Position numbers and translations under genes: made by a program
IMG/VR virus record: IMGVR_UViG_3300032236_001850
Location: 52,392-116,391 of that record
DNA: 64,000 nucleotides
Direction: 5' to 3' (one strand)
From: a virus
Shown here: positions 13,696-64,000 of the stretch, in pieces
How positions within the stretch are numbered: position 1 is the stretch's first letter
Layout of the letters: each line of letters starts with the position of its first letter
The notes under the pieces: model-generated
Databases searched by the model: none
The model's input: the letters and a program-made list of their open reading frames with translations, nothing else
What the model was told of the DNA's origin: nothing

Positions 13696-13938
13696 ATGGA
13701 AGATTCCTCTCAAAATCTAGAAATTCACGAGGCAGCGGATAGAATATATCCACTGATGGCCAATTACAGCTTTGATGCACAGGAAGAGATTATAAGGGAT
13801 TTGCTGAGGGTGATCTACACAAGAAAACTCGATAGTAAAAAATATCATAAAGAGCATCTGGATATAGCAACAGAGCAATCGGAAAAAATGAAAGAAAAAT
13901 ACCCATTTATATTTATAAAACAGGATGAAAAACTTTAG
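13696..13938 (+). CDS. hypothetical protein
   Basis: ORF track. Confidence 0.35.
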   Translation: MEDSSQNLEIHEAADRIYPLMANYSFDAQEEIIRDLLRVIYTRKLDSKKYHKEHLDIATEQSEKMKEKYPFIFIKQDEKL

Positions 13939-14773
13939 CCTTGGTGATCGTATGAAGGAATTCTACGAAGACCGTTTTAGATATTATGTTCCACGCAGAA
14001 CATACACATTAATCAGAATTGACGGGAAAGCCTTCCACACCTACACAAAAGGTTTGGAGTCACCATTTGATGCAGGATTAATTGCAGACATGAATGAGAC
14101 TACTGCCTACCTTTGTAAAAATATTCAAGGTGCAAAATTTGGCTATGTTCAATCGGATGAGATCAGCATACTTATTACTGATTTTGATGAGAGAGACACC
14201 CAGATGTGGTTTGACGGAAATCTACAAAAGATGGCTTCTGTTGCAGCTTCTATGGCTACATCAAAATTCAACGAATTAAGAGTAGTCAGAGTCCTTAGAA
14301 AATACGAATGCCAATTTGATACACCATTACAAATGGACACCGATTCGATATTAGAATTTCTTTCTAAGATTAAAAAAGCGGAGTTCGATGCTAGAGTATT
14401 TCAGATTCCACAAAAAAGCGAGGTTGAGAACTATTTCATCTTCAGACAACAAGACGGTACCAGAAACTCCGTCCAGTCGGTTGCTCAGAGCCTATATTCA
14501 CAAAGTGAATTAAATGGCAAGAAGGAGAAGGATATGCAGGAGATGATTTTTCAAAAAGGTATCAACTGGAATGATTACCACTTCAGAGAAAAAAGAGGTG
14601 GAATTATTGCTAAGGTTCCGACAATGATGGAGGGTAAGAATGGTCAGGTTGAAAGACTGAAATGGCAAATGATTCCAACTCCTATATTCACTCAGGAGAG
14701 AGAATTCATGGACATTATGATTCCAGAGTTTGAAATTAAATCACCTAAATCTGAAGAAGTTGAGGTACAATAG
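13925..14773 (+). CDS. Thg1-like protein (tRNA-His guanylyltransferase family, 3'-5' polymerase)
   Basis: N-terminal GDRMKEFYEDRFRYYVP...IRIDGKAFHTYTKG resembles Thg1 N-terminus (...RLDGRnFH.F). Confidence 0.55.
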   Translation: MKNFSLGDRMKEFYEDRFRYYVPRRTYTLIRIDGKAFHTYTKGLESPFDAGLIADMNETTAYLCKNIQGAKFGYVQSDEISILITDFDERDTQMWFDGNLQKMASVAASMATSKFNELRVVRVLRKYECQFDTPLQMDTDSILEFLSKIKKAEFDARVFQIPQKSEVENYFIFRQQDGTRNSVQSVAQSLYSQSELNGKKEKDMQEMIFQKGINWNDYHFREKRGGIIAKVPTMMEGKNGQVERLKWQMIPTPIFTQEREFMDIMIPEFEIKSPKSEEVEVQ

Positions 14774-47231: not shown

Positions 47232-47308
47232 GGTCCTTAAACTTAATTGGCATGGCGCCAAACTGGCTTCTAAACCCAGCGTCTCCGGTTCGAGTCCGGT
47301 AGGGATCA
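47232..47308 (+). tRNA. tRNA (candidate anticodon CUA, amber-reading; assignment unverified)
   Basis: acceptor ggtcctt/agggatc (2 GU); canonical T-arm tccgg-ttcgagt-ccggt with G53-C61; stem ctgg(c)/(c)ccag around loop ttCTAaa with U33 and A37; D-arm not resolved by eye. Confidence 0.4.
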
Positions 47309-47322
47309 CAAAAAACAAAGTC

Positions 47323-47655
47323 ATGAGAGAATTAACATGGACAACATATTACGGTGAGGTCAAAAGATTTTCAGAGATTGATCATCAACATCTATCAAAC
47401 ATTCTTTGGTTCAGAGAGATTCTAACAGGTGCAAATCTTTGTAACTGCGAAGTTCAAAGAGCATTAAATTCAGAATTGAAGAGATTTGGTGGTAAGCGAT
47501 TACCTTGGAAACCATTACCAATTCCACAGGAAATAGAATGGATAAGAGGAGCTGCTTATATAAACCAAAAAGGTGAGATAATAGGAACAATGAAAACACC
47601 ATCACATTATGGTAAAGTTATTGGATCCGTTGCTCATATAGAAAAACTCAACTAG
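47323..47655 (+). CDS. hypothetical protein
   Basis: ORF track; sits between tRNA and RNA island. Confidence 0.45.
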   Translation: MRELTWTTYYGEVKRFSEIDHQHLSNILWFREILTGANLCNCEVQRALNSELKRFGGKRLPWKPLPIPQEIEWIRGAAYINQKGEIIGTMKTPSHYGKVIGSVAHIEKLN

Positions 47656-47807
47656 CGGAGAGTAGGGGTAACCCAAAAATAGCTAAGCTGTGTTAAGCGA
47701 CAGAACTGATAATCTGTTAGAAGCTAGGTTGGATGGCGGAAAGCTTATAATGTGAGAAATCATGTTATAACGTGGCAGACGCTAGATTAGAGAAAGGACG
47801 CGATCGG

Positions 47808-47886
47808 GGTTGGAATACCGATAATGGCGAAAATGGAAGAACCAACGCTTTAATTACCATTGTGGGTTCGAATCCCACTTCAACCA
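47808..47886 (+). ncRNA. tRNA-like element (alternative 5' end at 47727 with class-II D-arm start)
   Basis: acceptor ggttgga/ttcaacc, T-arm gtggg-ttcgaat-cccac; ggttgga-tg-gcg-gaa also at 47727; D/anticodon arms not canonical by eye. Confidence 0.3.
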
Positions 47887-47899
47887 CAAATCAACGATG

Positions 47900-48060
47900 T
47901 TAACTACCTGTGGTATCTACGGGGGCTAGGGAGAAACCTAGAAACTTACTTCGGTAAGTTAAGGAGCAAATGAGTTACAGTTCGGATTTAAACCTTAAAA
48001 AAGCTACTGCTTTAATGATATGTAGATTCAGAATAGCTTGTACTATTTAGGTACCTGAAC
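47900..48060 (+). ncRNA. structured RNA candidate (hairpins incl. UUCG tetraloop)
   Basis: ctagg-gagaaa-cctag hairpin; acttac-ttcg-gtaagt UUCG-tetraloop hairpin; no ORF; GC above surroundings. Confidence 0.25.
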
Positions 48061-48128
48061 CATTCAAAGAAGTTTTAGCAGATGATGATATTTTTTAGCT
48101 GCGGCGGAAATTTTTTGATTCATCAAAC

Positions 48129-48220
48129 AGCCAGGTAGGCACAAGGTCGGTTCGAGTCCGATGGAAGGTCATGGATGACGGGTAGCACCCTGCATGGAGG
48201 TTCGATTCCTTCACTGGCTA
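48129..48220 (+). tRNA. class-II-length tRNA-like gene (92 nt; possible tRNA-Ser, anticodon-arm placement unresolved)
   Basis: acceptor agccagg/actggct (6/7 bp), U8A9, T-arm ggagg-ttcgatt-ccttc; internal hairpin gtcgg-ttCGAgt-ccgat. Confidence 0.35.
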
Positions 48221-48351
48221 CAAAAACATAACAGGATTAAGTTCGACCTTGCCGAGATTAAGCCTCGTATCTTATATTTTTATTACGGTCTTTGCCGACC
48301 CAGAAATATCGGATATCGCTAGCGTGGTAGCGGGATGTTATGTTTTTATTT

Positions 48352-48633
48352 GATCAGATGGCGGAATTGGTAGACGCACCCCAAAAAACAAAGCATCTGA
48401 GGGGCGGTTAAATAAGGAGGACGCAGACTCCGAATAATCCAGAACAGCAAGGACGTAAGATGAAATGACATCTTCAGCCTTGTGTCGGAAGTTGGGAATT
48501 AACCCGTGATACCAGAATAACCGATGTTCCAAGGTAGGTTATTCTTTAGGTGTGAGATGAAGACCGTTAAGGTTGAGTGACACAAGGGATTGACAGGGTC
48601 CAAATCGTACAGGTTCGAATCCTGTTCTGATCA
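48352..48633 (+). tRNA. class-II tRNA candidate whose halves lie ~280 nt apart (possible intron or insertion-containing tRNA)
   Basis: gatcaga-tg-gcg-gaattggtaga-cgc (acceptor, U8G9, 3-bp D-stem, class-II D-loop) at 48352-48377; acagg-ttcgaat-cctgt T-arm + tctgatc acceptor strand (perfect 7-bp complement) + discriminator A at 48609-48633. Confidence 0.4.
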
Positions 48634-48790
48634 CAAAAAAATGGAATATGACATTTGATGAATGGATTTATAAGGTTTGCTTACATATAAGCAACAGGAC
48701 AAGAAAGGAGATTACTGATGTTTATTCATCAATTGATCTAACAGATGCAAAGCTAACATTTCTGGACGGGATTAATCCGGAAGAATATAA

Positions 48791-49051
48791 TTGAGTATGA
48801 TTGAGTACTATGTAGGTATTGATCCTAAAGACAGAGAAAAGTTTGATTCTTATGTTGAATATCTGAATAATGATCAGCAATGCGACCCTAAATGTAAAAT
48901 AGAGGTTCTGCATGAATTTGATGATCCTGACGGATACTATACATTTATGATTCAGGGTCATTGGGATTCATACACTAAATTTTTAGGAGAAACCGGATAC
49001 GGTAGAGAAACGGATGGATTTGTTAAATCAATCAATCACTACGAGGAATAG
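48791..49051 (+). CDS. hypothetical protein
   Basis: ORF track. Confidence 0.4.
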   Translation: MSMIEYYVGIDPKDREKFDSYVEYLNNDQQCDPKCKIEVLHEFDDPDGYYTFMIQGHWDSYTKFLGETGYGRETDGFVKSINHYEE

Positions 49052-49054
49052 ATT

Positions 49055-49381
49055 ATGAACGTTGACTTATTTAGACACTGGATTCCAGATCTAAGACTAA
49101 CTCGGAATAAGAGTGCTTATGTTGCAAAACAGTGTCCAGTTTGTCCGCGTACACCGCATAGTAAATCATTTAGAATAAACACCAAACTTAAAGTTTGGAA
49201 ATGTTATCAGTGTGGCAGAAGTGGTAAATCATTTAACAAAATGATACATTACTTAAAGAAGAGAGACACTAAAAGAAAGGAGTTACAATATTTGAAGAAA
49301 ATAGGTCGTCGTCCAAAGTGTGTTCCTATTGACGTTCATTACGGGTGTGAAACGTACTATGAATCTACGTTACCGTTTTGA
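49055..49381 (+). CDS. zinc-ribbon protein
   Basis: CPVCPRTPHS ... CYQCGRSG CxxC pairs; followed by strong terminator. Confidence 0.45.
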   Translation: MNVDLFRHWIPDLRLTRNKSAYVAKQCPVCPRTPHSKSFRINTKLKVWKCYQCGRSGKSFNKMIHYLKKRDTKRKELQYLKKIGRRPKCVPIDVHYGCETYYESTLPF

Positions 49382-49424: not shown

Positions 49425-49488
49425 AAAATTTTTACAAAAAGTGAAACAAAAAAGAAAATTGAATATATAATAATAAATTAAGAACACA

Positions 49489-49842
49489 ATGACTTAGATT
49501 AACAAATTTCAAGAAACAAAACTGGTAGTAATCACCAGAGCTGATATTCATCCAGGGTATCAAATTGTCCAGAGCACACATTCGCTCGCAGATTTTGCAC
49601 ACGAACATCCTACAAAGTTCAAAGAATGGAAAGAGACAACAAATTCTATAATTTGTCTCTCCGCAAAATCAGAATCTCATTTAATTAAACTTTACGAAAA
49701 ATTAAGACACGTCACAGAGGCATCATTATTTTTTGAGCCTGATGTTGACGCATATACTTCTGCGTGCTTTTTTGGCACTCCGCAGGTTAGGAAATCATTG
49801 TCCAACCTTTCGTTATCTCTAAAAAATCTACAAACATCATGA
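49489..49842 (+). CDS. PTH2-family peptidyl-tRNA hydrolase; in-frame TAG at codon 3 (49495-49497)
   Basis: hand translation (not in ORF track: no ATG after the TAG): KLVVITRADIHPGYQIVQSTHSLA, KFKEWKETTNSIICLSAKSESHLIKLYEKLRHV, FFEPDVDAYTSACFFGTP collinear with PTH2 (VVRtDL.MGkGK.AAQcsHAA ... W...G..KVvlKv..e.eL..L...A...GL ... DAGrT....g..TvlaIGP). Confidence 0.55.
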
Positions 49843-50249
49843 AAGGAATTCTAAAAGTTAGAAACATTGACTCTATTAAAAAGCTGAGTCTTAAAAGGGC
49901 CATCGGTAAACAGAAAGGCCTATGGTTTAGAATGATGAAGATCAGAACCACAATTCTATTTCTTGAAGAGCACAACATGCTCAAAATTCAACAGCTGTGG
50001 GATATACTGGAAGTTTATCTGAATTACCAAATCGAATATTCTAAATTGCAGTATCTGATCTACATTAGAAAAAGAGGCTCCTGGAGTAATTATTCTACAC
50101 TATCACAGGAAACTATGGAAGAGTATATTAAAAAGATCGCCGTTAATTCCCATAGAATGACCAGCAATCTTCCATACGAAATCTATTACAAGTACAGGGT
50201 ATCTATAGGTGAAATGGAAAGGAAAATAAATGAAAATAAAGGCATTTAA
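49839..50249 (+). CDS. hypothetical protein
   Basis: ORF track; ATGA overlap with PTH2 stop. Confidence 0.4.
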   Translation: MKGILKVRNIDSIKKLSLKRAIGKQKGLWFRMMKIRTTILFLEEHNMLKIQQLWDILEVYLNYQIEYSKLQYLIYIRKRGSWSNYSTLSQETMEEYIKKIAVNSHRMTSNLPYEIYYKYRVSIGEMERKINENKGI

Positions 50250-55082: not shown

Positions 55083-58000
55083 GTGTCAAATCCATTAAAT
55101 CTTACAGGACAGTTTATAGCCGACACATACGGAAGATTATTACAGGTACAAGGTAATAATGTCTATGACGGCGAGGGTAACTATTTATATACAATTGGAG
55201 GAACTGGTGGAGGTACAGTTGGACCGCAAGGGCCTACTGGAGCAACAGGTTCACCAGGATCCAACGGAGCTACAGGTTCACAGGGAGCAACAGGAGCTAA
55301 CGGTTCGACTGGACCACAAGGAGCAACAGGTTCACAGGGAGCAACAGGAGCTAACGGTTCGACTGGACCACAAGGAGCAACTGGAACTAGCGGTGCTACG
55401 GGAGCTACGGGTAGAACAGGTGCTACGGGAGCTACAGGTTCAACGGGAGCTAATGGTGCTACGGGAGCTACAGGTTCACAAGGTGTTATGGGCTCAACTG
55501 GAGCAACGGGTATAACAGGTACAGACGGATCCAATAGTGGAAAATGGATATTATCAACATCATCAAGCCCATCACCAGGTACCTTCTTTACAAATTCCAC
55601 AAATACCGGTGACACCTCACAGATAATAATCAGCAATCTAGCGGACAATCTGACAAACTATTATGGCTGGAATCAAGCTGCTTCGGCTGCAACTGCATTG
55701 GGTAATCCCCTTTATTTGCAGATTTCCGAAGTTGGTAATGCTACAGTCAGCGGAATTTACCAAATAACAGCGGTGAATGATAATACAGGGTCATACTCTT
55801 ATGTTGTTTTATCCATATTATCGGCGGGAGGATTATTTACAATAGGAAAAGAATATACAATATCATGGGTATATTCGGGTAAGAATGGGGTGGATGGATT
55901 CCAAATAGTAAATATTGAAAACAATGAGGAATTAGTTCATCTTATAAATACTAGTCATCTTTTAAGTGGATGCTATTATAACATAAAAAGTGTGGATTTT
56001 AACTTGGATTACAGATTCGATTCAAAATCATACACAAACATTCTTTTGCTTGCATTAGCTAATAATAAAATAGCGGAGGATGGATATGGTATATTCTACA
56101 CACCCAAATATGATCAGTTCCCAATATTTTCATCCAATATTGCTTATAGTGTTGGAGATAGAGTCATATGGGGAGGCTACGTATGGACGTGCACGGTGTC
56201 AACATCACCAGTGACTGCACCGAGTCCATTTGAACTTAATCCAGATTATTGGACAACAGGATATTACAAGGACAATACAAATTTCTATAATGTTTCATTG
56301 GATTCCATAAAATATGACTATATAAACGATAGAATAATTTATAGAGAGGAAAAAAATACAAATATTGTTAGCACTAATAATGAAAATATATTATATTGGG
56401 AAAGCTTATTTGGAACATATAACTCTCCTATAAACGGCGACATAAAGTTCTACAATCCCATAAAATCATTCCAATGGGGTAACGTCTACGATGGCCAATA
56501 TGGTATAGGTAACCAGTACATTGAAAATTCATACAATGAAAATATAAATTTTAGTGGCGATTATCAAACTAATATAAAATTTACAAATCTATCATATCAA
56601 AGATTTTATAGTATATCGAATGATACTTCATCAATCTTTGTTGGTGGTGGATTTTCATCCTATACAAATCCAAGTTCATTGATTACAGAGGCTCACGGAT
56701 TAATCGAAATAACACCAACATATTACACTGATCAAATTTTTGATCAAGGATATGGATTTGATAATGGTTCGATGACCTCAGTAATACAGAAAGACCAAAA
56801 AATAATAATTGGCGGTGACTTTACAACTTACACTAACGGGACAACTTACACAGTTAATCGTATAATAAGATTGAATCAATGGGGTTCTATTGACACAACT
56901 TTCGCTACAGGAGGCGGTTTCAATAGTGCTGTTTTTGCTTTAGCTTTACAGGAAGATGGTAAAATTTTAGTTGGTGGAAGTTTTGATGCTTACGATGGAA
57001 GTTCTGCTAAATATATAGCCAGATTAAACCCCGATGGACAATTGGACAACTTTAATCTGGGGGAATTTGGATTTGATAACGATACCTATGTTAGCTGTTT
57101 AGCGGTACAACCAGATGGAAAGATTTTAGTTGGTGGAGGTTTCAATTCATACAACAGTAACACAGCAATAAAAATAGTAAGGTTAAATCCCGATGGAACT
57201 TACGATAACACATTTTTAACCGGTGATGGATTTAACGGTGATGTTAAATCAATAGTTATCCAGAAGGACGGAAAGATTTTAGTTGGGGGTCAATTTGACG
57301 CATTCAATGGTGACTCTGCAAATTACATAGCTAGGCTAAATCCTGACGGATCCAACGATGGCACCATAGGAACAACCGGATTTAATGGTGGTGTTAATTG
57401 TATAACTTTACAAAGGGATGGTAAAATTTTAGTTGGTGGTCAATTCAGTCAATATGATTCGAATACAATCAGTAACATAGTGAGACTAGAAAGTTCTGGA
57501 GCATATGATCCAACATTTGCTTATCTGGCGGAAAATCAGGGCGAAGTTAACGTGATAGTGGTGAATGATAACACCATAATCGCAGGAGGTAAGACTGAAA
57601 ATTTCAATCTAATAAAATTTGATTTGCTTGGGAATGATCTCTATTACTATCCAATAGATAATGGAGTTAGTACAATACAGATAGTACAAAAAACATACCA
57701 ATCAAATCTAACTTTCGATAACGGATCGCATCAGGACAGCGTAAGATTAAGATCAGGATCACAAGACACGATCAATCTAACAGATGGATCTTACCAGGAT
57801 ATGATTGGTCTTAATTTTTCTTATCAATCAAAATTAAATCTCAGAAATTCAAATCAAAATATTAAATTTCTAAACAGAGTTTATCAGAATGAGATTGAGC
57901 TAAAAAATTCCAACCAGATACTCAATTTAGCATTCGGAAGCTACCAAATTAATTTGGATTTATACAATTCCGAACAGCTTATTCCCGAACAAATTGAAAA

Positions 58001-60602
58001 CGTTATTCAGGAGAATATAAGCATAAAGAATTACAACTATGATAGGACAGTTCATCCAATAACTGGTTCGGAGTATAATCAATCATTCATGAATGATCTG
58101 GAGGTGAACAATTCAGCTCCTAAATTAATAGCTATCTCGAATAATAAATTATATGAACTTGAGGTTAGTTCGATTAGTGGAGGTACTGGTGCAACACCAA
58201 CAATTAATCAGGTATTAGGAGCAGGCGAATATGCAACGGATAAAAATATGGTGCTAAATACGTCGACAGATGCATTTAATACGTATCTTACACCAGGTCA
58301 GGTTGCAGTAAATAATGGTGTTGAGAGTATAAGAATGACTCCATCAGCCATCTCATTTTCAACACCATCCGGAGGCTCATCATTTTTAAAACCAAGTCTA
58401 ACACAACCATCTGCATTTTCTCCTACGTTTTACTTACCTGAAAAAGCAAGCACGTCAAACTATACGTTAGCTACCACTGCTGATTACAATCTACAAGCTG
58501 TAACAGCCAATGCCAACACAACAAATCTAGATATACAATTTCAGCCAGTTACCAATACAGGTGCAACTGGTACCAAATTTGTAACGATACAAAACACTGG
58601 TATTTTTCTATTGGGTACCAACCAGACAACTACAAATGTTTTCAACGATAGAATAGAATGGTCTCAATATGGAAATACCATTACTCTAGGAGCAACTACT
58701 GCAGCTGCTTCCAATAGTGCTAATTACATATTCCCAATAAAACCATTCTCAGGAACTCCCTATACATTAGCAACAACTGCTGATACCATTTCAGTATCTT
58801 CAGGTAACACTAACAATCTACAAATTTCCTCAATAGGGACAAACAGAGTATTTTATTCAAAAGGTCTAGTATCCTCAAATGGGTCAGTTACAGTGGGAAC
58901 TACAGGAACTACAGGAGGTACATCATGGGCATGGGATCTTAAGGTAAACGGTGTGACTGGTGCTACTGGCTCCAATGGAGCAACAGGAGCTACAGGATCT
59001 AACGGTTCTAATGGAGCAACGGGAGCAACTGGATCACAAGGTATCCAAGGTGTTACTGGAGCAACGGGAGCAACTGGATCACAAGGTATCCAAGGTGTTA
59101 CTGGAGCTACAGGATCTAATGGAGCAACAGGTTCTGCCGGAGCTACTGGAGCAACGGGATCACAAGGTATTCAAGGGGTTACTGGAGCTACAGGGGCTAC
59201 AGGAGCAAATTCAACAGTTCCTGGACCAACAGGAGCAACTGGTGCAACAGGATCACAAGGTATCCAAGGGGTTACTGGAGCAACTGGAAATAGCATCTCA
59301 GCAAGTTTCATGAGAGGATCTAGATCCGCCATGCAAACTCTGAATCTAACACCTAATAGTTTAGTTGCATTCACACAAATAGATCTTTCAACAGGTTCGG
59401 ATATTTCTTTGAACGCGTCAACCGGTCAGATAACACTAGCAGCTAATAGAGTTTATAGAATACTCGGACAAGTTCCAAATGGTATAGCAAGTGGTTCCAA
59501 TATAAGACCATCGTTCTCCTGGTATAATGAAACAGCAGGTACCTGGATAGGAAGCCAATCGGCAATCTATCAACCTTCAGACGCTGCGGGATATTGGTCA
59601 TCAGGAGGTCCATCTGATGCACTATTATCAACCAGCACATCAACTGTTATATCATATAGAATTCTTTCAGCAAGTGGTAGTATAACCGGTCTTGGAGCTA
59701 ATACAGATTTTGGTCTTACTGGTTCATATCCATGGTTTGATATACAAGTAATATCTGGAAATTCACCACTTCTAAATGGAGCTACAGGAGCAACCGGTGC
59801 AACGGGAGCCAGTATAACTGGACCAACTGGTGCAACGGGAGCCACTGGATCTGTTGGAGCAACAGGACCAACTGGTGCTACTTTCAATACAGTTCCTGCT
59901 ATCAACTGGGGTACTAACACTTTTACTAAATCTGGTTCAGGTAATGGTGATCAATTGCTTGATAATGGAACTAACGATACACCGGGAGTTCTTTTATATT
60001 ACGGAAATAACTCAAACTATGGTATTGATAGTTATAATGGTTCTTACAATGTTTTAAGCGGTCAGTTATTGAGATTTGTTACTAATCTAAATGAAGCTGG
60101 TGGTGCTATAAAAGCTGCATTCGATACATCGGGTAATTTAGCTCTTAGTGGATTTATAAATCCGAGCTCGTGGCGAGCTGGACAGACAATACAGACGAAA
60201 TTATTTAGTGCTAGCGATTTAGGATTTACAACAAACTATACCAACAGTACGAACACTTATACCTCCATAGTTACCGGTACTTATACCCCTCTGTCCTCAT
60301 CCTCGTACATTTTCTTTGAAGTTTATGCAATGTATGATGTTGGTGGTGCCGCTGCCGACTCATTCTTCTCCCAAATAACATGGAATGGTGGGGAAATTGG
60401 GGTTCAACGTCAAGTTTGGGCTAACGGTGCGGGTGGTGGTACACGTAGTGGTACATTATTTCCATTGGCTGGTAGAGTAACGAACTCCTCCACGACTGGT
60501 TATGGATGGGCAGTTAATACCAGAAGAGATTCTTCCGATGATGGTATTACTGTATATCCTAACGGTGGATTCTATGTGAAAATAACAGAAATCGCTAGAT
60601 AA
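55083..60602 (+). CDS. giant tail-fibre-like protein (1839 aa) with collagen-like G-X-Y repeats, delta-60-type beta-propeller repeats and short periodic repeats
   Basis: G-X-Y runs at aa ~40-155, ~1295-1410, ~1560-1600; ~8 repeats of [11 protein letters not shown]....I.RLNPDG..D..F (aa ~560-830); ~11-aa periodic xSxQxxIxLxN repeats (aa ~870-960). Confidence 0.7.
58956..59292 (+). repeat. tandem ~45-nt coding repeats ([15 protein letters not shown] units) in fibre 1
   Basis: repeated ggatcacaaggtatccaaggtgttactggagc(a/t)ac(g/a)gga units. Confidence 0.7.
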
Positions 60603-60659
60603 TCAACATAATCTCCCAAACTATGCGTAACGATATATAGATAAAATTAAAGTTACGAT

Positions 60660-64000
<3,341 letters not shown>

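What the first reader, a model, noticed from the sequence alone, without database searches (positions are those of the whole stretch)
49489..49842. PTH2-family peptidyl-tRNA hydrolase gene with an in-frame TAG at codon 3, invisible to ATG-based ORF calling
Hand translation from ATG 49489 gives M-T-TAG followed by 115 sense codons. These are collinear with PTH2 peptidyl-tRNA hydrolases (VVITRADIHPGYQIVQSTHSLA ... SIICLSAKSESHLIKLYEKLRHV ... DAYTSACFFGTP), ending in an ATGA overlap with the next gene. There is no in-frame ATG after the TAG. The upstream context (terminator, AT-rich leader) fits a real start at 49489. Options are TAG read-through via the nearby CUA tRNA candidate (a regulatory coupling between suppressor and hydrolase), initiation at ATT 49498, or a fresh nonsense mutation. 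A phage PTH2 alongside a Thg1-like enzyme and a tRNA cluster suggests a translation-apparatus rescue toolkit.
Basis: seen in the sequence. Interest (0 to 1): 0.75.

Follow-up and report, generated by a model that had tools for sequence, protein, structure and literature searches.

The report
Amber-gated phage hydrolase with dedicated suppressor tRNA
A giant-phage gene for a PTH2-like tRNA hydrolase always carries a TAG stop codon just after its start and travels with an oddly shaped amber-suppressor tRNA gene, so the enzyme is probably made only when that tRNA reads through the stop.

Summary
No ATG or GTG follows the TAG.

It is not a mutation. All 129 related loci with a complete N-terminus (48 clusters at 80% identity) have ATG, 0-7 variable codons, TAG (never TAA or TGA), then a codon starting with a purine. 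These include cultured Tenacibaculum phage pT24 and the 635-kb phage LR745206.1. The 'Q' at this site in database homologues comes from code-15 gene calling.

The window and both complete genomes otherwise use the standard code, with TAG as an ordinary terminator. This gene is the only credible stop-gated ORF in them.

A covariation-supported, non-canonical 8/4 tRNA(CUA) lies at 47232-47308. ARAGORN and Rfam both miss it. A CUA tRNA is co-oriented with the gene in 82 of 129 loci, often 17-100 nt upstream. Each complete genome has exactly one.

The protein has the PTH2 fold, but Tyr replaces the PTH2 'GK' lysine.

Best reading: translation of the hydrolase is gated by a dedicated phage amber suppressor. 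This is inferred, not shown. I found no description of it in the searched literature. It can be tested in pT24.

The parts
47232..47308 (+). Non-canonical amber-suppressor-type tRNA with anticodon CUA. It has an 8-bp acceptor stem, a 7-nt connector (AACTTAA), a 5-bp D stem with a short loop containing TGG, an anticodon stem with loop C-TTCTAAA-C, a 5-nt variable region, a 4-bp T stem and A73. No CCA is encoded.
   Evidence: Found by a hairpin plus T-loop scan and read directly. Covariation over 16 homologues: 92.6% of cells paired, 19 of 23 pairs with changes on both sides, 0 of 500 shuffles reach the observed values, and slid controls give 30-44% paired. Covariance model R1 gives 79 bits, and this is the only strong hit in the window. 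However, this sequence was one of the 16 used to build the model. Not detected by ARAGORN or Rfam.
49443..49470 (+). Conserved upstream motif GAAAC-N15-ATATATAA, ending 18 nt before the ATG. It may be a gene-specific promoter or a leader element; its function is unknown.
   Evidence: A TATATAA-type motif lies 7-36 nt upstream of the ATG in 61 of 95 distinct upstream regions of homologues, often preceded by GAAAC. The bipartite motif occurs only once in the 64-kb window, at this position.
49489..49842 (+). Full reading frame of the PTH2-like gene: ATG, ACT, TAG, 114 sense codons, TGA.
   Evidence: Family alignment A1. PF01981 hits. AlphaFold2 model with mean pLDDT 81.5. Foldseek top hits are PTH2 structures 2zv3, 1q7s and 1xty.
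49489..49494 (+). Start codon ATG plus one variable sense codon (ACT). Across relatives this pre-TAG stretch is 0-7 codons long and not conserved in sequence.
   Evidence: Distance from the ATG to the TAG, in codons counting the ATG: 1 (1 locus), 2 (84), 3 (22), 4 (8), 5 (5), 6 (4), 7 (3), 8 (2).
49495..49497 (+). In-frame TAG 'gate' codon at codon 3, followed by ATT.
   Evidence: TAG is present at the equivalent site in 129 of 129 loci, never TAA or TGA. The next base is a purine in all 48 clusters, against 50% after genuine TAG terminators (p=6.6e-12). It lies in the low-confidence N-terminal tail, before strand 1 of the model.
49498..49839 (+). The 114 codons that encode the PTH2-fold domain (INKFQETKLVVITR...LQTS).
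   Evidence: (phrog_1866, E=1e-13).

Best explanation
The gene encodes a PTH2-fold (peptidyl-tRNA-hydrolase-like) protein. Translation starts at ATG 49489 and must pass an in-frame TAG at codon 3. The phage's own structurally non-canonical tRNA(CUA), at 47232-47308, decodes that TAG, so the enzyme is made only when, and in proportion to how well, this suppressor tRNA is expressed, processed and charged. Together the tRNA and the gene form a dedicated two-part module. In most relatives an HD-domain gene lies downstream as a third part; the window lacks it. The module sits in phage genomes that otherwise use the standard code. What is shown: the anatomy, its invariance, the linkage, the tRNA structure and the PTH2 fold. 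What is inferred: that the tRNA reads this TAG, which amino acid is inserted (Gln is only an assumption), and the physiological logic. My preferred reading of that logic is that the TAG acts as a sensor coupling hydrolase supply to amber-suppression activity. The enzyme would then either clean up peptidyl- or damaged tRNAs produced by read-through and drop-off (feed-forward), or act on the suppressor tRNA itself (feedback).
For: (1) Invariance. All 129 loci with a complete N-terminus (64, 48 and 26 clusters at 90, 80 and 70% identity) have ATG, 0-7 non-conserved codons, then TAG. TAA and TGA never occur there, although TAA makes up about 74% of terminators in the window.
(2) Database homologues that show 'Q' at this site carry TAG in their DNA.
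(3) The codons after TAG (ATT, ATA, ATC, GTA, GTT = Ile/Val, plus AAC, ACT, ACA) behave like an ordinary, conservatively evolving sense codon. The universal in-frame ATG upstream points to elongation through the TAG.
(4) A tRNA with anticodon CUA lies in 82 of 129 loci, and in 32 of the 43 loci that have at least 3 kb of upstream flank. It is always on the gene's strand, and in 32 loci it ends 17-100 nt upstream of the ATG. CUA is by far the commonest anticodon near the gene: 25 of 107 ARAGORN tRNAs, plus about 65 non-canonical ones.
(5) A prediction that could have failed held up. LR745206.1 belongs to a clade with no adjacent CUA tRNA, yet it encodes exactly one 8/4 tRNA(CUA), 169 kb from the gene (58.5 bits).
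(6) The code is otherwise standard. In the window, TAG ends 18 of 106 ORFs, with no other gated ORF and no excess of tandem stops. pT24 is 92.5% coding and LR745206.1 93% coding under table 11, and this gene is the only credible stop-gated ORF in each.
(7) The tRNA is a real structured RNA with invariant U33-C34-U35-A36-A37.
(8) The TAG sits in the disordered N-terminal tail, so the identity of the inserted residue should not matter for the fold.
(9) The base after the TAG is a purine in 48 of 48 clusters, against 50% after genuine TAG stops. From memory, classic E. coli work found that a 3' purine favours amber suppression.
Against: There is no direct evidence of read-through: no proteomics and no ribosome profiling. 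47 of 129 loci show no CUA tRNA within the DNA held, although many are short contigs and LR745206.1 shows that the tRNA can lie far away. The tRNA is structurally unusual (8/4 stems, a long connector, a mispaired position 31-39 or a 9-nt anticodon loop, and non-U33 in a few relatives), and its charging and ribosomal competence are untested. The strong preference for ATT after the TAG (106 of 129) is also what a weak AUU restart codon would look like. More distant homologues lie next to suppressor tRNAs without any in-frame stop (L041-43 with UUA, L048 and L137 with CUA). So the tRNA linkage does not require the gate and might reflect an enzyme-substrate relation instead. The PTH2 catalytic lysine is not conserved, so 'hydrolase' is itself an inference.
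Confidence: 0.7

Rival explanations
1. Mini-ORF with termination and reinitiation. Ribosomes start at the ATG, translate 0-7 codons and terminate at the TAG, then restart at the adjacent AUU (or AUA). The protein therefore begins at window 49498, and the tRNA(CUA) linkage has another cause, for example that the tRNA is the enzyme's substrate.
For: ATT follows the TAG in 106 of 129 loci, and ATA or ATC in 4 more. AUU is a known rare bacterial initiator (E. coli infC and pcnB, from memory). The pre-TAG peptide is variable and looks dispensable. More distant homologues keep the suppressor-tRNA linkage without any in-frame stop.
Against: In 19 of 129 loci the next codon is GTA, GTT, AAC, ACT or ACA. 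None of these is an initiator, and no other start codon lies within 25 or more codons. The model gives no reason why the stop should always be TAG in genomes where TAA dominates. Taking the 48 clusters as independent and a TAG share of about 0.17, chance is below 1e-30. The interchange of ATT/ATA with GTA/GTT is a typical Ile/Val substitution pattern at a decoded position.
Confidence: 0.12
2. A sensor of release factor 1 or general read-through that does not depend on the phage tRNA. The TAG would be read by a near-cognate host tRNA when RF1 activity is low, in the manner of prfB autoregulation, so that expression reports termination capacity rather than the phage suppressor.
For: The position at the very start of a translation-related gene is analogous to the infC and prfB sensors. 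47 loci show no CUA tRNA in the DNA held.
Against: Both complete genomes examined encode a CUA tRNA. The tight, co-oriented adjacency, 17-100 nt in 32 loci, would be left unexplained. No conserved read-through-stimulating structure was seen downstream: the hairpin at 49522-49538 is not conserved in L001.
Confidence: 0.1
3. The phage uses genetic code 15 (TAG = Gln) genome-wide, and this TAG is just one ordinary recoded glutamine codon.
For: Gene callers translated homologues under code 15. Recoding in large phages of Bacteroidota is well documented (bioRxiv 10.1101/2021.08.26.457843). Only 64 kb of this particular genome can be seen.
Against: In the window, 18 of 106 ORFs end in TAG, and making TAG a sense codon gains less open frame than making TGA a sense codon. 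No other interrupted or gated gene turned up in the window, in about 600 kb of related loci, or in the complete pT24 and LR745206.1 genomes, which are 92.5% and 93% coding under table 11 with intact structural and lysis genes. A neutral Gln codon would drift to CAA or CAG, yet TAG is kept in 129 of 129 loci.
Confidence: 0.04
4. The gene is a pseudogene or carries a recent nonsense mutation, or the TAG is a sequencing error.
For: A single C-to-T change turns CAG into TAG. The ORF is invisible to standard gene callers.
Against: The same TAG is found in 129 independent assemblies from lakes, oceans, sludge and a cultured phage. The downstream 114 codons are conserved at the protein level with 21 invariant residues.
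Confidence: 0.01

Closest known systems
PTH2 peptidyl-tRNA hydrolases (Pfam PF01981: archaeal Pth2, human PTRH2/Bit1) and the PTH2 homologues noted in jumbo phages (Iyer et al. 2021, PMC7824862)
   Same: Same alpha/beta fold: Foldseek top hits are 2zv3, 1q7s, 1xty and 1rlk, with TM 0.51-0.62. The profile matches PDB PTH2 entries at E=4e-4 to 0.6, and PF01981 is the only Pfam family matched by all 39 members. As Iyer et al. describe, the gene sits among tRNA-repair and translation genes: Thg1 in the window, and RNA ligases, PNKP, a CCA-adding enzyme and SmpB in the relative L002.
   Different: The window protein scores just below the Pfam cutoff (22.0 against 23 bits). The PTH2 'GK' lysine aligns with Tyr, giving a PGYQ motif. 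The family has its own invariant residues: H28, W44, K45, N49, S50, C53, E80-P81-D82, T87, C90 and R98. Neither the obligatory N-terminal TAG, nor the linkage to a CUA tRNA, nor the HD-domain partner appears in that paper's passages on PTH2, and the word 'suppressor' does not occur in the paper.
Stop-codon recoding (code 15/4) as a translational timer in phages (Borges et al., bioRxiv 10.1101/2021.08.26.457843; Peters et al. 2022, PMC9523058)
   Same: A phage-encoded suppressor tRNA plus an in-frame stop codon make a gene's expression depend on a change in decoding.
   Different: In those phages many late genes carry many recoded stops, and coding density under table 11 is low. Here the genomes use the standard code, TAG still terminates 12-17% of genes, and a single conserved gene carries a single TAG at codons 2-9. 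The word 'hydrolase' does not occur in that preprint.
Autoregulatory recoding sensors at the start of translation-factor genes: prfB in-frame UGA with +1 frameshift, and the infC AUU start codon (from my own knowledge, not checked in the library)
   Same: A non-standard decoding event early in the ORF of a translation-related gene sets its expression according to the activity of one component of the translation apparatus.
   Different: The component sensed would be a suppressor tRNA encoded next door, not the gene's own product. No frameshift is involved. Whether the product feeds back on the sensed activity is unknown.
(8/4) tRNAs and allo-tRNAs (Mukai et al. 2017, PMC5389517)
   Same: A 12-bp acceptor branch split as 8 + 4. 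Such tRNAs occur in bacteria and phages, and versions engineered to carry a CUA anticodon work as amber suppressors in E. coli.
   Different: The phage tRNA(CUA) described here has a short 5-nt variable region instead of the long arm of allo-tRNA-Ser. It also has a 7-8-nt connector between the acceptor and D stems and a mostly unpaired 31-39 position. That paper does not report it with a CUA anticodon in the passages read.
Lambda bar-type minigenes and Pth (from my own knowledge)
   Same: An AUG followed by one to a few codons and a stop is the classic situation that produces peptidyl-tRNA drop-off, which is the substrate of peptidyl-tRNA hydrolases.
   Different: Here the 'minigene' is in frame with, and directly continuous with, the hydrolase ORF. 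Its stop is always UAG and it is paired with a CUA tRNA. No link to drop-off has been tested.

Membership tests
PTH2 peptidyl-tRNA hydrolase (PF01981) | Match to the Pfam model at or above the gathering score | tested here: inconclusive
   The window protein scores 22.0 bits against a cutoff of 23 (E=2e-4). All 39 aligned homologues match PF01981 and nothing else (best E=5e-8). Profile A1 hits PDB PTH2 chains 24bt, 2zv3 and 1wn2 at E=4e-4 to 0.03.
PTH2 peptidyl-tRNA hydrolase (PF01981) | PTH2 alpha/beta fold | tested here: met
   The AlphaFold2 model has pLDDT 81.5 and pTM 0.77. The best PDB matches are 2zv3 (E=5e-4, TM 0.56-0.61), 1q7s Bit1 (TM 0.60-0.62), 1xty (TM 0.61) and 1rlk.
PTH2 peptidyl-tRNA hydrolase (PF01981) | Conserved Lys of the 'GK' motif. 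From memory, this is reported as catalytic Lys18 in S. solfataricus Pth2; I could not verify this in the library. | tested here: not met
   In the HMM alignments the family's 'sPGYQvvQStH' lines up with 'sTGKKcvQScH' (24bt) and 'GKGKmvaQggH' (2zv3), so Tyr occupies the lysine position. The downstream Q..H is kept.
PTH2 peptidyl-tRNA hydrolase (PF01981) | Hydrolysis of the peptidyl-tRNA ester bond | not testable with these tools
   This needs an enzyme assay.
Genome-wide TAG-recoded (code 15) phage | Many genes interrupted by in-frame TAG, with low coding density under the standard code | tested here: not met
   The window has one such gene only. pT24 is 92.5% coding and LR745206.1 93% coding under table 11, each with one TAG junction between long open stretches, against 16 and 33 for TAA.
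Genome-wide TAG-recoded (code 15) phage | TAG not used as a terminator | tested here: not met
   TAG ends 18 of 106 ORFs in the window, 36 of 293 in pT24 and 78 of 907 in LR745206.1.
Genome-wide TAG-recoded (code 15) phage | Phage-encoded tRNA with anticodon CUA | tested here: met
   Window 47232-47308; pT24 tRNA-Sup; LR745206.1 at 507,340-507,420.
(8/4) non-canonical tRNAs (Mukai et al. 2017) | 8-bp acceptor stem plus 4-bp T stem | tested here: met
   The acceptor helix of 8 pairs is 98.4% paired, with 7 of 8 pairs covarying. The T helix of 4 pairs is 100% paired.
(8/4) non-canonical tRNAs (Mukai et al. 2017) | Long variable arm of the allo-tRNA(Ser) type | tested here: not met
   The variable region is 5-6 nt long.
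tRNA-Pyl / pyrrolysine decoding of UAG | tRNA-Pyl architecture (3-nt variable loop, one base between the acceptor and D stems, no G18G19 or T-psi-C; from memory) together with PylRS | tested here: not met
   The tRNA has a GTTCGA T-loop, a TGG in its D loop, a 7-8-nt connector and a 5-nt variable region. I did not search specifically for PylRS. Nothing in the pT24 annotation is so named.
Autoregulatory recoding sensor (prfB/infC type) | The recoding site lies early in the ORF of a translation-related gene | tested here: met
   The TAG is at codon 2-9 in 129 of 129 loci.
Autoregulatory recoding sensor (prfB/infC type) | The gene product changes the activity that the site senses | not testable with these tools
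   This needs biochemistry or genetics on the tRNA(CUA) and the enzyme.

The most novel reading that the evidence does not exclude
The tRNA(CUA) and the TAG-gated PTH2-like gene (with its HD partner) form a self-contained, naturally orthogonal 'suppression homeostat'. The enzyme would act on the aminoacyl or peptidyl form of the non-canonical tRNA(CUA) itself, so the TAG at its own codon 2-9 closes a negative-feedback loop. That loop would hold amber read-through at a set level in a phage that still uses TAG as a terminator. This would be a natural tRNA-based autoregulatory circuit, with a dedicated tRNA whose only obligatory client in the genome is its own regulator.
Probability: 0.2. Interest if true: 0.9.

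Novelty: new variant of a known kind. Interest (0 to 1): 0.8.

Why it matters
Suppressor tRNAs turn up in many phages that use the standard code, and nobody knows what they are for. Here, the only gene in each of two complete genomes that appears to need the amber suppressor (the only credible stop-gated ORF found) is a conserved tRNA-hydrolase-like gene. It is often placed directly behind the tRNA gene.

Several consequences follow:
- It gives a concrete and testable function for such tRNAs: gating, or sensing by, one translation-related enzyme.
- It supplies a natural example of a single-gene amber 'lock' operated by a structurally unusual 8/4 tRNA, which is of interest for genetic-code engineering.
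- It fits the proposed early step, suppressor first and recoding later, in the evolution of alternative codes in phages.
- It exposes a systematic annotation error. The gene is missed or truncated under table 11, as with pT24 gp293. Short contigs are wrongly called code 15. Standard tRNA finders miss the tRNA.
- Phage pT24 is cultured, so the hypothesis can be tested directly.

Tried and rejected
1. Default ARAGORN and Rfam at gathering score find no usable tRNA near the gene. ARAGORN with introns allowed gives two forced 'intron' models that I do not trust.

2. I first took the 'Q' in database homologues as evidence for TAG = Gln. The DNA shows TAG, and the Q comes from code-15 gene calling.

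3. Genome-wide recoding. Open-frame gain with TAG as a sense codon is smaller than with TGA as a sense codon. TAG-joined ORF pairs are rare. The pairs at 2478..3062|3066..3947 and 48791..49051|49055..49381 look like ordinary neighbouring genes, and the second ORF of the latter pair has a different upstream neighbour in L007-L011.

4. Tandem 'backup' stops after TAG terminators: no excess (9 of 18 against 30 of 88, p=0.28). Avoidance of purines after genuine TAG stops: none.

5. A regulon of N-terminally gated genes: none found in the window, the related loci, pT24 or LR745206.1. The other hits are antisense, low-complexity ORFs.

6. Covariation between gate codon and anticodon in distant homologues. 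L041-43 have a UUA tRNA next to the gene but no in-frame TAA. L137 has a CUA tRNA but a plain GTG start. So there is no covariation, although the linkage persists.

7. Stop-hopping or frameshifting. The frame is unchanged across the TAG, and the codons on either side do not match.

8. A read-through-stimulating hairpin. The stem at 49522-49538 is not conserved in L001.

9. The GAAAC...ATATATAA motif as a general promoter class: it occurs only once in the window.

10. The literature on Pth2 catalytic residues could not be retrieved, so that point rests on memory plus the alignment.
Full report
OBSERVATION. The sequence reads ATG(49489) ACT TAG(49495-97) ATT AAC AAA ... and stays open for 114 codons to TGA 49840-42. 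That TGA overlaps the ATG of the next ORF (49839..50249) as ATGA. After the TAG there is no in-frame ATG or GTG, and the first canonical start is a TTG about 100 codons in. This is why the ORF lister does not report the gene. Otherwise the description is accurate.

WHAT THE PROTEIN IS. The 114-residue product matches Pfam PTH2 (PF01981) just below threshold: 22.0 bits against 23, E=2e-4. A database search returned 38 close homologues. All 39 aligned sequences match PF01981 and no other family (best E=5e-8). The family profile finds solved PTH2 structures (24bt, 2zv3, 1wn2, 1q7s, 1rzw). The PHROG match is phrog_1866, of unknown function. An AlphaFold2 model (pLDDT 81.5, pTM 0.77) has a disordered N-terminal tail followed by an alpha/beta domain. 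Its best PDB matches are PTH2 enzymes: 2zv3, Bit1 1q7s, Sulfolobus 1xty and 1rlk, with TM 0.51-0.62. So the fold and the superfamily are PTH2. However, the lysine of the PTH2 'GK' motif aligns with Tyr in this family's PGYQ motif. From memory, that lysine is catalytic in Sulfolobus Pth2. The family also has its own invariant His, Cys, Asp and Arg residues. 'Peptidyl-tRNA hydrolase' is therefore a reasonable working name, not a demonstrated activity.

THE TAG IS NOT A MUTATION. The only DNA-level hit among deposited phages, the 634,780-bp uncultured phage LR745206.1, reads ATG AAC AAT TAG ATT AAT... at the homologous start. Database homologues appeared to have Gln there (MTQIN, MKQIN, MLQIN). 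Their contigs, however, carry TAG, and the look-up reports that the genes do not translate to the stored protein under table 11. The Q is an artefact of code-15 gene calling.

I then collected loci from IMG/VR, JGI/ENA metagenomes, GTDB genomes and GenBank phages. In all 129 loci with a complete N-terminus the gene begins ATG, 0-7 sense codons, TAG. These fall into 64, 48 and 26 clusters at 90, 80 and 70% identity. TAA and TGA never occur at that position, although TAA is the dominant terminator in these AT-rich genomes (78 of 106 ORFs in the window). The pre-TAG codons vary in number and identity. The codon after the TAG is ATT in 106 loci, GTA in 12, ATA in 3, AAC in 3, GTT in 2, and ACT, ACA and ATC in one each. 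It therefore always begins with a purine, compared with 50% after genuine TAG terminators (p=6.6e-12). The set includes the cultured Tenacibaculum phage pT24. There the gene reads ATG AAA TAG ATA ACC... and is fused to a C-terminal HD-like domain. The annotated CDS (HYP10_gp293) starts 129 nt downstream of the true ATG.

THE GENOMES ARE OTHERWISE STANDARD-CODE. In the window, TAG terminates 18 of 106 ORFs, with no excess of backup stops. Treating TAG as a sense codon gains less open frame than treating TGA as one. A scan for 'ATG, a few codons, a stop, then a long startless ORF' finds only this gene in the window and in about 600 kb of related loci. I assembled two complete genomes from the phage collection. 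pT24 (234,670 bp) is 92.5% coding under table 11. Its stops are TAA 247, TAG 36 and TGA 10, its structural and lysis genes are intact, and it has one credible gated ORF, which is this gene. LR745206.1 is 93% coding, with stops TAA 658, TGA 171 and TAG 78, and again its only credible gated ORF is this gene.

THE PARTNER tRNA. ARAGORN finds CUA-anticodon tRNAs close to the gene in many loci, but none in the window. A scan for a CUA anticodon hairpin followed by a T-loop found one at window 47232-47308, with the same unusual type in many relatives. Sixteen of these align into a cloverleaf with the following parts:
- an 8-bp acceptor stem;
- a 7-8-nt connector;
- a 5-bp D stem with a short loop containing TGG;
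- a 5-bp anticodon stem whose position 31-39 is usually unpaired, giving a 9-nt loop with invariant UCUAA;
- a 5-nt variable region;
- a 4-bp T stem, and A73.

In this alignment 92.6% of cells are paired, 19 of 23 pairs change on both sides, no shuffle out of 500 reaches the observed values, and slid controls give 30-44% paired. A covariance model built from the alignment gives one strong hit in the window (79 bits). It also gives strong hits (50-91 bits) in dozens of loci that were not used to build it.

Overall, 82 of 129 loci hold a CUA tRNA, as do 32 of the 43 loci with at least 3 kb of upstream flank. The tRNA is always on the gene's strand, and in 32 loci it ends 17-100 nt before the ATG. 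In the window it lies 2.18 kb upstream. A relative (L010) has the compact arrangement, and the window appears to have gained inserted ORFs and irregular tRNA-like elements in between.

One test could have failed. LR745206.1 belongs to a clade with no nearby CUA tRNA, and ARAGORN finds 59 tRNAs there, none of them CUA. The model nevertheless finds exactly one 8/4 tRNA with the loop C-TTCTAAC-C, at 507,340-507,420. pT24 has four annotated tRNAs, one of which is tRNA-Sup. Tracts of 8/4 tRNAs are known in bacteria and phages, and versions engineered with a CUA anticodon suppress amber codons in E. coli (PMC5389517).

OTHER MODULE PARTS. An HD-domain-like gene (weak PF01966 match, E=4e-4) follows the PTH2-like gene in 72 loci and is fused to it in pT24. 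The window has no copy. A GAAAC-N-ATATATAA motif precedes the ATG in 61 of 95 distinct upstream regions and occurs only once in the 64-kb window.

MECHANISM. Shown: the anatomy, its invariance, the linkage and co-orientation, the tRNA structure, the standard-code background and the PTH2 fold. Inferred: that ribosomes start at the ATG and the tRNA(CUA) decodes the TAG, so that synthesis of the enzyme depends on the suppressor.

Four points support read-through over a restart at the next codon. The in-frame ATG is universal. The stop is exclusively TAG. The next codon shows an Ile/Val-type substitution pattern, including codons that cannot initiate, in 19 loci. The TAG lies in a disordered tail, where the inserted residue would not matter.

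The inserted amino acid is unknown. The physiological logic is also unknown. I favour a sensor that couples supply of the enzyme to suppression activity, by analogy with the prfB and infC sensors. The enzyme would either clean up peptidyl- or damaged tRNAs (compare Iyer et al., PMC7824862) or act on the suppressor tRNA itself.

More distant homologues sit beside suppressor tRNAs without any gate: UUA in L041-43, CUA in L048 and L137. This suggests that the enzyme-tRNA partnership is older than the gate.

NOVELTY. PTH2 homologues in jumbo phages, suppressor-tRNA-driven recoding as a regulator and 8/4 tRNAs are each already known. Full-text searches combining these themes found no description of three things: a universally TAG-gated PTH2-like gene, its cassette with a non-canonical tRNA(CUA), or a standard-code phage whose suppressor has a single obligatory client. 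Within the limits of that library, this is a new variant of known kinds of system. It can be tested directly in pT24.

Noticed in passing
window 47655-48640: A stretch with no ORFs holds several irregular tRNA-like elements. Each has a perfect T arm and a matching acceptor strand, but long insertions in between. The element at 47727-47886 is 160 nt, scores 27.9 bits against Rfam tRNA, and has an internal repeat of the GGTTGGA 5' strand at 47808. The element at 48352-48634 is 283 nt, with a tRNA-Leu-like 5' end and an insert of about 200 nt. There are two adjacent T arms at 48146-48162 and 48196-48212. Relatives are mosaic here: L010 replaces about 880 nt with 58 nt. Rfam reports no group I intron.
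   Followed up: partly
window 4271-4327 and 4530-4655: A second tRNA-like region. One element is a 57-nt Rfam tRNA hit (34.2 bits) that seems to lack an anticodon arm. The other is a 126-nt element with a good acceptor stem and T arm that ARAGORN can only model with an 'intron'. The 3950-5050 region is otherwise non-coding.
   Followed up: partly
window 47655-47727; L010 5602-5690: A conserved element of about 75 nt (TAGCGGAGAGTAGGGGTAACCC...GACAGAACTGATAATCTGTTAGAAGCTA) lies between the tRNA(CUA) region and the next tRNA-like gene. It is 93% identical between the window and L010, and it contains a hairpin with an 8-nt loop. It may be another non-canonical tRNA or a small RNA.
   Followed up: no
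L003 9783-9875; L047 10213-10310: ARAGORN reports tRNAs with four-base anticodons (UACA in L003, AUAC in L047), that is, 8-nt anticodon loops. In L003 this tRNA lies immediately upstream of the gated gene.
   Followed up: no
L052 (pT24) 2956-3909; L001 4031-4582: An HD-like domain is fused to the PTH2-like domain in pT24 and is a separate downstream gene in 72 loci. In L003, L004 and L014 only a 40-residue remnant survives. The window's clade (window, L002, L006, L010) lacks it nearby.
   Followed up: partly
window 49443-49470: The bipartite motif GAAAC-N15-ATATATAA is specific to the upstream region of this gene family. In loci where the tRNA ends about 18-45 nt before the ATG, the motif fills the whole spacer, so it may not be an ordinary promoter.
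   Followed up: partly
L094 114-194, L096 1938-2018, L027 5177-5258, L038 5850-5932: Some of the 8/4 CUA tRNAs have G, A or C instead of the near-universal U at position 33.
   Followed up: no
window 13925-14773: A Thg1-family gene (PF04446, E=8.7e-25). Thg1 enzymes extend tRNA 5' ends. Its presence alongside tRNAs with 8-bp acceptor stems may not be a coincidence.
   Followed up: no
L137 1190-1240: On a contig with a canonical tRNA(CUA) and an ungated distant homologue, a short reading frame ATG CTG TAG ATG AAA ACC ... TGA follows an AGGAG. It is another ATG-N-TAG start of unknown meaning.
   Followed up: no
window 58000-64000: G+C rises to 0.41-0.47, against about 0.36 elsewhere. ORFs of similar length overlap on both strands after the 1839-codon ORF at 55083..60602.
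   Followed up: no
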